IMG/VR virus record: IMGVR_UViG_2930248008_000005
Location: 1-64,000 of that record
Length of the DNA: 64,000 nt
Strand: one strand, 5' to 3'
Source: a virus
Lineage: Duplodnaviria; Caudoviricetes
The stretch's first letter is position 1; every line of letters starts with the position of its first letter. Shown here one piece after another: positions 8,886-12,738 of this stretch. Under the pieces are notes generated by a model, which was not told the DNA's origin, searched no databases, and saw nothing but the letters and a program-made list of their open reading frames with translations. The position numbers and the translations under genes are program-made.

Positions 8886-9257
8886 CTACAGCTCGGCGAC
8901 CGAGGCGTCCTCGACGGGCGCGGCCGGCCTGACCGGCGCGGTGATCTGGGTGCGTTCGAACATGCCGAGCGCGACGCCGACGAAAGAGAGCAGGACGGCC
9001 TGGTCCTCGGCGGACATGTCGAGCCCGAAGCCCACCGCGGCGGCGAGCGCCGCCTGGGCGAGACCGAGCAGCGCGGCGACCTGGCCGTCCTTGACGGCGA
9101 TGAACGCGACCAGGACGCCGACTGCGGCAGCGGCCACCGTGTTCAGCACGGCCTGCTGGTCCACGGTGAGGTCGAAGAGAAATGCGGCGACCATCTTGAT
9201 CACCGCGGCGGCGAGGGCCAGGAAGATGGCCGGGTCGCGGCCGAACAGCTTGGGCAC
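8886..9257 (-). CDS. Holin-like membrane protein
   Basis: FGRDPA N-terminus, several TM helices, RxQITAP C-terminus; lysis region. Confidence 0.75.
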   Translation of the reverse strand: MPKLFGRDPAIFLALAAAVIKMVAAFLFDLTVDQQAVLNTVAAAAVGVLVAFIAVKDGQVAALLGLAQAALAAAVGFGLDMSAEDQAVLLSFVGVALGMFERTQITAPVRPAAPVEDASVAEL

Positions 9258-9352
9258 GGATGCTCCTTGAATGGAGGGGCCGCCAGCCGGGCGGCGTAGC
9301 GCTTTTGTCGCTCACCGGACAGTTCGATGTCGCCCGAGTGAGGTATGGTCAC

Positions 9353-9513
9353 GGCATCCCCGCCAACGCGGGGGTAACCCAGGGGAACGGCCTAGCTAGA
9401 ACCCCTGTCCCCACGCACGTGGGGGTGATCCACTGATGTGTTTGTTGAGAGAGGTTGCCGTCCCGGCCGATTCGCGGGACTGCAAGATTCCCCGCCCACG
9501 CGGGGTGCGCCCT
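9353..9513 (+). CRISPR. Degenerate mini-array of three type I-E-like CRISPR repeats, no cas genes
   Basis: GGCATCCCCGCCAACGCGGGGGTAACCCA (9353-9381), CCTGTCCCCACGCACGTGGGGGTGATCCA (9404-9432), AGATTCCCCGCCCACGCGGGGTGCGCCC (9485-9512); gaps of 22 and 52 nt. Confidence 0.6.
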
Positions 9514-9570
9514 TCGAGGCGAGGCTCGCAACACCATCGCAGCGCCGGATGGCCGGCGCAGTCGCACATG

Positions 9571-9605
9571 ACGACGACCCCTCGGCGACTCGCCGGGGGG
9601 TCGTC
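9571..9605. terminator. Strong hairpin, probable terminator
   Basis: GACGACCCCTCGGCG...CGCCGGGGGTCGTC just after the stop of 9617..9886. Confidence 0.55.
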
Positions 9606-9616
9606 TCGTTGCGGCG

Positions 9617-9886
9617 TCAGACTCGCTCAGGCCAGTGCCACGTGCCGCCGTGGTACGAGGGCGTATCCGGGGCGCCGGGGGTGTCACTGGCGTCGCCGTC
9701 GTGGCGCTCGCAGCCGCCGTCGGCCAGGGAGTGGAAGAACACCCCGGTCGGGTTAAGCACGGCCAGGCCGAGCCGGTCGTCGTCGCCGACCTCGGTGATC
9801 ATGGCGGCGCGGCACTGGGAGGTGTACTCCCCGCCCGGCGTGCCGTACGAGACGTAGTGAACAATGCGGCCGACAGTGGGGGTCAC
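9617..9886 (-). CDS. Conserved phage protein (PTVGRIVHY...WHWPERV family)
   Basis: Recognisable N- and C-terminal motifs; overlaps upstream stop. Confidence 0.8.
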   Translation of the reverse strand: MTPTVGRIVHYVSYGTPGGEYTSQCRAAMITEVGDDDRLGLAVLNPTGVFFHSLADGGCERHDGDASDTPGAPDTPSYHGGTWHWPERV

Positions 9887-10233
9887 CGCTCACCTCGCAG
9901 GGCGTCCACGACCGCCATGAACAGGCGGTCCTTGAGTCGCTCTCCCTCTGGCAGTTCCGCGTACGGAACCAGACACGGGTGGGTCATCGCCTCGGGGTCC
10001 TTCACCGGGCCGTAGCTCCAGCCGGCGGCGCGCTTGGCCTCGCACCACGCCTCGTGCAGCTCCTCCGGGCCGGCTCCATTCAGGGCCTCCAGCACGCCCG
10101 CCACTGCCGATTCGCGCTGCCAGTCAGGGGCGTCGTCCCATGGCGGCGACGGCGACGGGTCCTGGAGTAGCGCCTGGATGGCGCGGTTGGCCTCGTGGCA
10201 GACACGGGCGATGTCCTCGGCCGAGAGCTGCAT
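9883..10233 (-). CDS. RyR-domain phage protein
   Basis: IARVCHEANRA...HEAW..KRAAGWSYGPVKD...THPCLVPY.ELP motif; GGAGG RBS. Confidence 0.85.
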   Translation of the reverse strand: MQLSAEDIARVCHEANRAIQALLQDPSPSPPWDDAPDWQRESAVAGVLEALNGAGPEELHEAWCEAKRAAGWSYGPVKDPEAMTHPCLVPYAELPEGERLKDRLFMAVVDALRGER

Positions 10234-12036: not shown

Positions 12037-12738
12037 TCAGCTCCTCAGCGCGCCGACCGTCTGCGGGCCGGCCAGCCCGTCGACACTCAGCCGGCGAGCC
12101 TTCTGGAAAGAGCGGACGGCGGCCTGGGTGGCGGGACCGAAGTCGTCGTCGATGTTGATCTTGGCGCCGCGCTTGTTGAGTAGCTCCTGCAGGTCGCCGA
12201 CGTCGCTTCCCCGCGCGCCGATCTTCAGCGTGCGAGACCCGAGCGCGACCGGCTTGGGTGAGGCCGGGGGCTTCGGCGTCTTGCCCACCAGCGACGCCAG
12301 GCCGAACGGGCGGCGGTCGTTGTCGCCGTCCGGGTGTCCGGACAGGTGGATGTGCCTGTCGTGCGGGTTCGACCCGGTGTACCGCCGGGCCTGCCAGCCA
12401 GTGGATGCCGACCAGATGGTCCGGTTGAAGATGATGTAGATCAGCCTGCGCTCGCGGCCGGCGCGGCAACGCCCGACCAGGTACGCCACGATCATCTCCG
12501 CGGTCAGGCCGGTCACCCGCAGGTCCTTGTCGACGTCGATCGCCCTGACTTCGTTGATCCGGTCGGCGTCGCTGCGCTCCGCGCGGCCCGTCTCGTCGGG
12601 GTTGTGGCCCGACCTGGATCCCTGGTGCGCCTGGTCGCCGATCGACCCGTCGGACGCCTTGTCTCGCTTCGGGGCGATGGCGTTCAGCTCCGAACGGAAC
12701 TGCTCCGCCCACGCCACCAGCACCCACGGTGCGCCCAT
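12037..12738 (-). CDS. Endolysin: Zn peptidase-like catalytic domain plus C-terminal peptidoglycan-binding domain
   Basis: SGHNPD...AIDVD...PHDRHIHLS; LKIGARGSDV..LQ...DDDFGPAT..AV..FQ..L.VDGLAGP.T PG-binding motif. Confidence 0.88.
   Translation of the reverse strand: MGAPWVLVAWAEQFRSELNAIAPKRDKASDGSIGDQAHQGSRSGHNPDETGRAERSDADRINEVRAIDVDKDLRVTGLTAEMIVAYLVGRCRAGRERRLIYIIFNRTIWSASTGWQARRYTGSNPHDRHIHLSGHPDGDNDRRPFGLASLVGKTPKPPASPKPVALGSRTLKIGARGSDVGDLQELLNKRGAKINIDDDFGPATQAAVRSFQKARRLSVDGLAGPQTVGALRS

What the first reader, a model, noticed from the sequence alone, without database searches (positions are those of the whole stretch)
9340..9605. Orphan type I-E CRISPR-like repeats hidden antisense in the lysis region (Racr or mini-array candidate)
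Seen: three ~29-nt units with the TCCCCRC-N4-GYGGGG hairpin, one with a compensatory change (CCCCAC/GTGGGG against CCCCGC/GCGGGG). Gaps are 22 and 52 nt, a TATGGT -10-like hexamer lies at 9344, a strong hairpin at 9571-9605, and there are no cas genes in the window. Established: this is the shape of actinobacterial type I-E repeats, whose spacers are normally ~32 nt; phages encode crRNA-mimic anti-CRISPRs (Racrs) and mini-arrays. Inference: the abnormal spacer lengths and degenerate repeats suggest a Cas6/Cascade decoy or a regulatory guide rather than an immune array.
Basis: partly seen in the sequence, partly recalled or inferred. Interest (0 to 1): 0.72.

Follow-up and report, generated by a model that had tools for sequence, protein, structure and literature searches.

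The report
Prophage mimic of host CRISPR array
A prophage of a Micromonospora-like actinomycete carries a tiny, cas-less imitation of its host family's type I-E CRISPR array, most likely an RNA that jams or redirects the host's CRISPR proteins; this phage trick was described recently, so this is a new example and not a new principle.

Summary
Three type I-E repeat-like units lie at 9353-9381, 9404-9432 and 9485-9513, all on the + strand. They are the only ones in the 95-kb provirus (3 found, 0.11 expected). Unit 2 shares 24 consecutive bases, hairpin and 5'-handle included, with a genuine 71-repeat array in a genome of the family of Micromonospora matsumotoense. Units 1 and 3 resemble that family's second repeat variant.

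The gaps are 22 and 52 nt, against 32-33 nt in genuine arrays. No cas genes are in the record. The units fill a 359-nt gap between a late gene and the holin, antisense to both, and two holin relatives lack this gap.

Fifteen of 66 other viral loci with such repeats have the same short period. This anatomy fits the published viral "Cracr arrays" and Racr RNAs, which are crRNA mimics that sequester or reprogram Cas proteins.

I found no target or host CreR counterpart for either guide-like gap, no relative that conserves the array, and no RNA data. Decoy and regulatory guide therefore cannot be separated, and a decaying relic is not excluded.

This scan has already reported similar arrays on other DNA. 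Verdict: new member of a known kind, moderate interest.

The parts
9328..9349 (+). Candidate promoter: TGTCG-N11-TATGGT. This is the core of the actinobacterial RecA-independent DNA-damage promoter motif, and its -10 ends 3 nt before repeat unit 1.
   Evidence: It is the only match of TGTCR-N11-TANNNT in the 64-kb window on either strand; 0.47 are expected and 38 of 100 shuffles have at least 1. The consensus tTGTCRgtg-8nt-TannnT was read in a passage of PMC5656591. A host CreR in L137 has the same layout. The strict sigma-70 scan found no promoter. None of 44 unit clusters in 23 other high-GC viral loci has the motif.
9353..9381 (+). Repeat-like unit 1 (psiR1): 7-bp hairpin, 4-nt loop, then a 5'-handle-like GTAACCCA.
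   Evidence: It is 20 of 29 identical to both natural repeat variants of the family. The hairpin forms in the minimum-energy fold.
9382..9403 (+). Spacer-like gap 1 (psiS1), 22 nt, holding the only CTAGCTAG of the provirus.
   Evidence: No target was found.
9404..9432 (+). Repeat-like unit 2 (psiR2), with the CCCCAC/GTGGGG stem and the handle GTGATCCA.
   Evidence: Twenty-four consecutive bases are identical to the 71-copy array repeat of G040 contig C70.
9433..9454 (+). First 22 nt of gap 2 (psiS2a), 45% G+C.
   Evidence: No target was found.
9455..9485 (+). Hairpin X inside gap 2. It starts exactly 51 nt after the start of unit 2, the same period as unit 1 to unit 2. It may be a decayed repeat or an added structure.
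   Evidence: Inverted repeat I10, arms 9455-9465 and 9475-9485, 91% complementary. It forms in the fold. It is only 11-12 of 29 like the natural repeats.
9485..9513 (+). Repeat-like unit 3 (psiR3), the terminal unit. The hairpin is intact, one G is missing after the stem and the handle is not conserved.
   Evidence: 18 of 29, or 19 with a gap, to variant B. Terminal units of other viral mini-arrays also lose the handle.
9573..9605 (.). Strong GC hairpin, a likely two-way terminator. It would end the + strand array transcript and sits 11 nt after the stop of the minus-strand gene 9617-9886.
   Evidence: (I1) and the folds. The terminator scan did not call it because there is no T-run.
8886..9257 (-). 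Context: holin gene, last gene of the minus-strand late operon.
   Evidence: phrog_9752, E 9.6e-25; GC3 0.94.
9617..9886 (-). Context: 89-aa late gene of unknown function upstream of the gap.
   Evidence: phrog_2293, E 1.2e-23; no Pfam family.

Best explanation
A phage-encoded, cas-less imitation of the host family's type I-E CRISPR array: an RNA anti-CRISPR of the Cracr/Racr class.

Inferred working:
1. A transcript of about 250 nt starts near 9355 on the + strand, antisense to the late/lysis operon, and ends at the hairpin 9573-9605.
2. Host Cas6e binds and cuts after the 3' arm of each repeat hairpin (after 9373, 9424 and 9505). This gives a 51-nt RNA (8-nt handle, 22-nt guide, 21-nt hairpin) and an 81-nt RNA.
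3. These RNAs load host Cas6e/Cascade in place of immune crRNAs.
4. Guides that depart from the canonical 32-33 nt length would, by inference, not license Cas3. They either tie up Cas proteins (decoy) or steer Cascade to a promoter of the host's cas or guard genes and repress it (regulatory guide).

Shown here: the repeat mimicry, the non-immune geometry, the absence of cas genes, the insertion relative to other holin loci, and the recurrence of the same design in other viruses. Inferred: transcription, processing, loading and effect.
For: (1) Three units occur only here. All are on one strand, which is the crRNA-sense strand by comparison with genuine arrays that have a leader.

(2) The likeness goes beyond the hairpin. 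Unit 2 has 24 consecutive bases identical to G040's 71-copy repeat, handle GTGATCC included. Units 1 and 3 are 20 and 18 of 29 identical to variant B of G351 and G388.

(3) All three stems stay perfect although the units are only 16-20 of 29 alike.

(4) The periods are 51 and 81, against 61 in 131 genuine repeats of three genomes.

(5) Fifteen of 66 viral loci that hold such repeats contain 47-53-nt periods. These typically have dissimilar repeats, a degenerate last repeat and a terminator hairpin.

(6) The published type I-E Cracr array has psiS of 24 and 21 nt and a defective third psiR.

(7) Host CreR mini-arrays with 21-nt guides exist in Micromonospora-genus I-E loci and match nearby promoter-side sites. 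One has the same TGTCR-N11-TAnnnT promoter abutting its first repeat, as in the window.

(8) The 359-nt gap is absent before the holins of phage ZL12 (21-nt gap) and of L004.

(9) No Cas6e, Cas7e or Cse1 is in the record.

(10) The + strand folds with z = -4.59, and 0 of 200 shuffles fold as well, with every unit as its own hairpin.
Against: No target and no host CreR counterpart was found:
- psiS1 with up to 3 mismatches hit 3 of 401 family genomes, against 24 hits of the reversed control.
- The handle plus psiS2a hit 0 of 401.
- In 201 kb of I-E loci the best scores, 15 of 19 and 13 of 19, lie inside the shuffled range.
- Seed scans found nothing, in the provirus either.
- Viral and metagenome scans found nothing relevant.

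Other points against:
- Gap 2 is 52 nt, not short, and holds a non-repeat hairpin.
- Unit 3 lacks a G and the handle.
- No relative conserves the array. None of 3 holin relatives (L004, ZL12, L006) and none of 4 lysin relatives has it, so selection cannot be shown.
- The strict promoter scan found nothing, and the DNA-damage motif is only a core match chosen after seeing the sequence.
- Rfam gives no CRISPR-DR match to the units.
Confidence: 0.6

Rival explanations
1. A decaying relic: a piece of a host array or of an older phage mimic array that was inserted before the holin gene and no longer works.
For: Unit 3 is degenerate, with one G lost and no handle. Gap 2 is irregular and hairpin X sits where a repeat would be expected. 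No target was found. No relative conserves it.
Against: All three stems and 4-nt loops are intact, and two handles are well kept, despite 31-45% divergence between units. A 22-nt gap cannot come from normal 32-33-nt acquisition. A candidate promoter and a terminator frame the unit. Degenerate last repeats are the rule in the other viral mini-arrays.
Confidence: 0.2
2. A working immune mini-array that borrows host Cascade-Cas3 to destroy competing phages or plasmids.
For: The repeats are of the host type and cas genes are absent, as in virus-borne mini-arrays used in inter-viral conflict. That use is mentioned in the Racr paper's introduction. Some viral loci found here carry 32-nt spacers.
Against: The gaps are 22 and 52 nt, not 32-33. 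The 50,697 phage records give no relevant match to 9340-9620; the only hit is a 25-nt match at E = 3. psiS1 has none in viral contigs. The psiS2a hits lie in low-GC phage genes, 6 of the 7 in one homologous gene. The two metagenome scans gave 0.
Confidence: 0.05
3. Elements of the minus-strand late mRNA or DNA, such as stabilising or attenuating hairpins or protein-binding sites that control holin expression, which resemble CRISPR repeats only by convergence.
For: The gap lies inside the late operon just upstream of the holin. The minus strand also folds well, z = -3.76. The hairpins are palindromic, so they form on both strands.
Against: The likeness to I-E repeats includes the non-palindromic handle GTGATCC on the + strand and 24 identical consecutive bases. 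The units occur nowhere else in the provirus. Holin relatives manage without the gap.
Confidence: 0.07

Closest known systems
[quoted passage not shown]
   Same: Both are on a prophage with no cas genes. Both have three repeat-like units that differ from each other and frame two guide-like gaps. One gap is short (22 nt here, 24 and 21 nt there). The third unit carries a one-base deletion. Both sit in one small transcription unit. Host CreR elements of the same design exist in the host genus.
   Different: The defining match of the guide to a host CreR or to the cas promoter was not found here. Gap 2 is 52 nt with an internal hairpin. The units copy two different natural repeat variants. The array lies antisense inside the lysis cassette. 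The host is an actinomycete. The paper lists Actinomycetota among its targets, but its tables are supplements that I could not open.
Racrs, RNA anti-CRISPRs made of solitary repeat units, including RacrIE1 and RacrIE2 (Camara-Wilpert et al., Nature 2023, PMC10651486; I read the abstract and passages)
   Same: Both are phage-encoded mimics of the host repeat without cas genes. Sequestering Cas6/Cas7 into useless complexes needs no target, which fits the lack of a target here.
   Different: Racrs are solitary units. That paper's finder sets aside repeats that lie within 100 bp of each other as arrays or mini-arrays. Here three units lie within 161 nt and have guide-like gaps. No acr gene is recognisable nearby.
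Host CreR mini-CRISPRs that auto-repress cas genes (bioRxiv 10.1101/2023.03.10.532045, abstract seen in a listing only), and the CreR-like elements found here in Micromonospora-genus loci L126, L132, L133, L134, L135, L137, L138
   Same: The layout is psiR-short guide-psiR. The handle ends in ...GTGATCCA in 4 of 5 host elements (L132, L133, L137, L138; L126 ends in G; L134 and L135 left out), as in window unit 2, and unit 1 also ends in ...CCA. One host element has the same promoter core 3 nt before its first repeat.
   Different: Host CreRs sit inside cas loci next to cas3 or cse1, and their guides match a site 60-210 nt away. The window's array is on a provirus and its guides match none of these.
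Canonical type I-E CRISPR arrays of the same family (G040, G351, G388)
   Same: The repeat hairpin, the loop length and the 5'-handle sequence are the same.
   Different: Genuine arrays have near-identical repeats, a period of 61 nt, tens of spacers and adjacent cas genes. The window has three dissimilar units, periods of 51 and 81, and no cas genes.

Membership tests
Cracr array (viral crRNA-like regulatory anti-CRISPR RNA) | Encoded on a virus or plasmid, outside any CRISPR-cas locus | tested here: met
   The record is an IMG/VR provirus, with phage late and lysis genes around the array. No Cas6e, Cas7e or Cse1 is in the 95-kb record.
Cracr array (viral crRNA-like regulatory anti-CRISPR RNA) | Repeat-like units (psiR) that resemble the repeats of a host-type CRISPR-Cas system | tested here: met
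   The units are 24, 20 and 18 of 29 identical to natural I-E repeats of the family of Micromonospora matsumotoense, hairpin and handle included.
Cracr array (viral crRNA-like regulatory anti-CRISPR RNA) | Two or more different spacer-like sequences in one unit, shorter than immune spacers (21-24 nt in the tested I-E case) | tested here: inconclusive
   Gap 1 is 22 nt, which fits. Gap 2 is 52 nt, which does not, unless hairpin X at the 51-nt register is a decayed repeat.
Cracr array (viral crRNA-like regulatory anti-CRISPR RNA) | The guide matches a host CreR/CreA guide (at least 9 PAM-proximal bases) or the cas/creT promoter | tested here: not met
   Not found in those searched: 401 family genomes, 201 kb of 30 I-E locus stretches, viral and metagenome scans. 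The provirus's own host genome could not be examined.
Cracr array (viral crRNA-like regulatory anti-CRISPR RNA) | Cas-dependent maturation, and repression of the cas or creT promoter | not testable with these tools
   No RNA run holds the stretch. This needs small-RNA sequencing and reporter assays.
Racr (solitary-repeat RNA anti-CRISPR) | A solitary repeat unit, not part of an array | tested here: not met
   Three units lie within 161 nt. The Racr paper's finder sets such clusters aside.
Racr (solitary-repeat RNA anti-CRISPR) | Lies immediately downstream of a promoter and is often next to acr genes | tested here: inconclusive
   A -10-like TATGGT lies 3 nt before unit 1 within a partial DNA-damage promoter core, but the strict scan finds no promoter. 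The neighbours have no known family that marks an acr or aca gene.
Racr (solitary-repeat RNA anti-CRISPR) | Binds Cas6 and Cas7 and forms aberrant subcomplexes | not testable with these tools
   This needs biochemistry.
Canonical type I-E CRISPR array | Near-identical 28-29-nt repeats at a constant period of about 61 nt | tested here: not met
   The units are 16-20 of 29 alike and the periods are 51 and 81. Genuine arrays have periods of 60-62.
Canonical type I-E CRISPR array | Match to a curated CRISPR direct-repeat RNA family | tested here: not met
   Rfam gives no match at gathering score. At E up to 10 the units match only unrelated hairpin models.

The most novel reading that the evidence does not exclude
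The array is a damage-triggered, two-variant CRISPR jammer wired into lysis.
- It would fire from the same RecA-independent (PafBC-type) promoter class that heads some host cse1 operons and a host CreR, so it switches on together with the host's cas genes at prophage induction.
- Its chimeric RNAs would join the handle of one natural repeat variant to the hairpin of the other, so that it captures Cas6e/Cascade of both.
- The embedded non-repeat hairpin would derail Cas7 filament assembly.
- Its antisense passage across the holin leader would tie counter-defence to lysis timing.
Probability: 0.1. Interest if true: 0.6.

Novelty: new member of a known kind. Interest (0 to 1): 0.36.

Why it matters
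It adds an actinomycete (Micromonospora-type) prophage to the recently described RNA anti-CRISPRs that imitate CRISPR arrays.

Three further points came out of the work:
- The design recurs: 15 of 66 viral loci with this repeat type have short-guide periods.
- The matching host regulators (CreR mini-arrays with 21-nt guides) exist in the Micromonospora genus.
- Both host and phage elements may share a DNA-damage-type promoter, which is a testable hint.

For people who engineer actinomycetes or their phages, such arrays could explain failed CRISPR interference, and they offer compact natural guide scaffolds. The principle itself is already in print, and this scan has met it several times on other DNA.

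Tried and rejected
- Rfam, gathering and permissive: no CRISPR family.
- Exact unit 1 in viral and genome collections: 0 matches.
- Holin relatives L004, ZL12 and L006, and 4 lysin relatives: none has the gap or the units. Conservation could not be tested.
- Target hunts, all negative or at chance level:
  - psiS1 in 401 genomes: 3 hits against 24 control hits.
  - Handle plus psiS2a in 401 genomes: 0.
  - cse1 upstream regions of G351, G388 and G040.
  - 201 kb of I-E loci against shuffled guides.
  - Seed plus PAM scans, including the provirus itself.
  - Viral contigs: psiS1 0 hits; psiS2a 7 hits, all in 32-42% G+C phage contigs, 6 of them in one homologous gene, rejected as chance.
  - Phage records: only a 25-nt hit at E = 3.
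  - Metagenome contigs: 0 and 0.
- The octamer CTAGCTAG, shared by psiS1 and a site upstream of a gene start in L137, is not flanked by further identity. I rejected it as a target.
- 381 unique spacers from the fetched host arrays against the provirus: best 25 of 32, none with an AAG PAM, rejected.
- Sequencing runs: no RNA holder is listed.
- Laying the one DNA run's contigs on the G388 I-E locus gave only 19-41-nt scraps. This says nothing about whether the host has an I-E system.
- L097 is not a relative of this provirus.
- The DNA-damage promoter core was absent from 44 unit clusters in 23 other high-GC viral loci.
- Supplementary tables of Liu et al., which list the 219 Cracrs, were closed. 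They may already hold this or a related array.

Full report
**What is there**

The window is the first 64 kb of a 95,389-bp IMG/VR provirus with 70% G+C. The motif TCCCCRC-N4-GYGGGG occurs three times, at 9357-9373, 9408-9424 and 9489-9505, all on the + strand. The expectation is 0.11, and 0 of 100 shuffles reach three. The rest of the record has none, and a looser regex finds no further unit that carries a handle.

The repeat finder groups the three as one family with start-to-start spacing of 51 and 81 nt. In the register of genuine arrays the anatomy is:
- units at 9353-9381, 9404-9432 and 9485-9513;
- gaps of 22 nt (9382-9403) and 52 nt (9433-9484);
- a further hairpin inside gap 2 (9455-9485);
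- a strong 16-bp hairpin at 9573-9605.

**Setting**

A GC3-based ORF map puts the late genes on the minus strand, from about 38.8 kb down to 8.9 kb. The gap 9258-9616 separates an 89-aa late gene (9617-9886, phrog_2293) from the holin (8886-9257, phrog_9752, E 9.6e-25). A lysin with a peptidoglycan-binding domain lies at 12037-12738. The units are thus antisense to the operon around them.

Two holin relatives do not have this gap. In Streptomyces phage ZL12 the preceding gene ends 21 nt before the holin homologue. In the IMG/VR contig L004 the holin also follows its neighbour closely. The closest holin in the genome collection is a truncated copy in Micromonospora matsumotoense DSM 44100, 82% identical over residues 52-116, next to a transposase-like stretch. 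The provirus holds no Cas6e, Cas7e or Cse1.

**Are the units really type I-E repeats?**

Yes. The M. matsumotoense genome (G001) has a two-repeat orphan array whose core equals unit 2.

I searched 401 genomes of the family of G001 with window 8886-9900. One genome, G040, gave 72 matches at 97% identity to 9408-9436. Its contig holds 71 repeats at a period of 61. Two other genomes, G351 and G388, hold arrays of 32 and 28 repeats of a second variant. All four of G040, G351, G388 and G001 have Cse1 matches.

| Window unit | Likeness to natural repeats |
|---|---|
| Unit 2 | 24 consecutive bases identical to variant A: whole hairpin, loop GCAC and handle GTGATCC; 24 of 29 overall |
| Unit 1 | 20 of 29 to either variant |
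| Unit 3 | 18 of 29 to variant B, 19 with one gap |

The + strand is the crRNA-sense strand, judged by the genuine G388 array, which has an A+T-rich leader upstream.

However, it corresponds to the two natural repeat variants of the family and need not have arisen in place. Rfam does not recognise the units.

**Why it is not an immune array**

- The three units are only 16-20 of 29 alike, while genuine repeats are near-identical.
- The periods are 51 and 81 instead of 61.
- The last unit has lost one G and the handle.
- No cas genes accompany it.

**The same design elsewhere**

A scan of viral contigs with a pattern that covers units 1 and 2 returned 66 loci:

| Class | Loci of 66 |
|---|---|
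| At least one period of 47-53 nt | 15 |
| A single unit | 11 |
| Only periods of about 61 nt (or twice that) | 34 |
| Other | 6 |

The short-period arrays look like the window's. They have two to seven dissimilar repeats and guide-like gaps of 20-21 nt, which in several loci resemble each other within one array. The last repeat lacks the handle, and a terminator hairpin follows.

**Known counterparts**

Liu et al. (bioRxiv 10.1101/2024.10.29.618823; I read sections 7, 8 and the discussion) describe "Cracr arrays". These are viral copies of host CreR/CreA mini-arrays. [quoted passage not shown] - In the tested Salmonella prophage array the guides are 24 and 21 nt.
- The third repeat of that array has a one-base deletion and is poorly processed.

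Camara-Wilpert et al. (PMC10651486; abstract and passages) describe Racrs, which are solitary repeat units that sequester Cas6/Cas7. Two of them act on a type I-E system.

The window's array has the anatomy of the first and could work like either.

**Host regulators in the same genus**

Cse1 was found in 22 of 151 genomes of the genus of G001. I fetched 7 kb upstream of 20 of the 21 full-length cse1 matches.

Seven of these stretches hold solitary or paired repeat-like units beside cse1 or cas3, on the opposite strand. They have the layout psiR-guide-psiR, with guides of 21 nt (L126, L132, L133) or 31-32 nt (L134, L135, L137, L138).

Their guides match a second site 60-210 nt away, next to an AAC or AAG motif. 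The match is continuous from the PAM-proximal end, ignoring each sixth base:
- 14-15 bases in L133 and L132;
- 7-8 bases in L126, L137 and L138.

This is what CreR elements are expected to do (abstract of 10.1101/2023.03.10.532045, seen in a listing). The circuit that a Cracr would hijack therefore exists in this genus.

**Promoter hint**

The core TGTCR-N11-TAnnnT of the actinobacterial RecA-independent damage promoter (consensus read in PMC5656591) occurs once in the window, at 9328-9349 on the + strand. Its -10 (TATGGT) ends 3 nt before unit 1. The expectation is 0.47 per window.

In 177 kb of host I-E loci the core occurs seven times:
- The full consensus lies upstream of cse1 in L114 (G040) and L137.
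- A core copy abuts the first repeat of the host CreR in L137, with the same 3-nt distance.

Against this reading:
- The match in the window lacks the outer consensus bases.
- I chose the pattern after seeing the sequence.
- The strict sigma-70 scan finds nothing.
- None of 44 unit clusters in 23 other high-GC viral loci has the motif.

I treat it as a lead only.

**What could not be shown**

Neither gap has a target or a host counterpart. The searches are listed under Tried and rejected. No spacer of 381 from the fetched host arrays hits the provirus convincingly. No relative conserves the array, so selection on it cannot be measured. No RNA run is listed. The host assembly itself was not available to me.

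The 52-nt gap is unusual. Hairpin X starts exactly 51 nt after unit 2, which is the period from unit 1 to unit 2. It may therefore be a decayed repeat, with unit 3 abutting it as in L072 and L082. Its sequence is only 11-12 of 29 like the natural repeats.

**Verdict**

The best reading, at 0.6, is a phage crRNA-mimic mini-array of the Cracr/Racr class aimed at type I-E systems of Micromonospora-like hosts. I cannot tell whether it acts as a decoy or as a guide.

Rivals:

| Reading | Confidence |
|---|---|
| Decaying relic | 0.2 |
| Minus-strand regulatory hairpins | 0.07 |
| True immune mini-array | 0.05 |

It is a new member of a known kind. Earlier follow-ups of this scan reached the same class for arrays on other DNA. 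I used those notes as leads: the DNA-damage promoter, and a possible target at the start of cas8e. I tested both here. The first held partly, and the second gave nothing.

Noticed in passing
L097:1-1000 (IMG/VR contig of 93,913 bp, 73% G+C): A stand-alone Cas6e gene (L097:222-842, Pfam PF08798, E 6.9e-25) is flanked on both sides by I-E-like mini-arrays with periods of 61 and 41 upstream and 62 and 49 downstream, followed by a terminator hairpin. This looks like a virus that brings its own Cas6e for its mimic arrays. It is not a relative of this provirus.
   Followed up: partly
L126, L132, L133, L134, L135, L137, L138 (Micromonospora-genus I-E loci): Host CreR-like mini-arrays lie beside cse1 or cas3, with 21-nt or 31-32-nt guides. 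Each guide matches a nearby site next to an AAC or AAG motif.
   Followed up: partly
L114:3457 (G040) and L137:6368 (G376): The full RecA-independent (PafBC-type) damage-promoter consensus lies about 125-215 nt upstream of the cse1 match. Core copies lie at about 3115 in L134 and L135. Some I-E cas operons in this family may be induced by DNA damage.
   Followed up: no
Viral loci L050, L054, L081, L092 and others: Guide-like gaps within one viral mini-array are often variants of each other, as expected if they aim at variant promoters of related hosts. Fifteen of 66 loci have short periods.
   Followed up: partly
window 9392-9399 and L137:3316: The octamer CTAGCTAG occurs once in the 95-kb provirus, inside gap 1. 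It occurs once in 177 kb of host I-E loci, just upstream of a ribosome-binding site at the site matched by that locus's CreR. No further identity flanks it.
   Followed up: yes
L009:1497-1590 (G001 contig C18): A two-repeat orphan I-E array with one spacer, far from the fragmentary Cse1 matches of the same genome.
   Followed up: no
window 41420-64000 and beyond: First-reader notes of this scan describe a long array of small genes separated by conserved structured repeats, and a tandem-promoter region, in the same provirus. I did not examine them.
   Followed up: no
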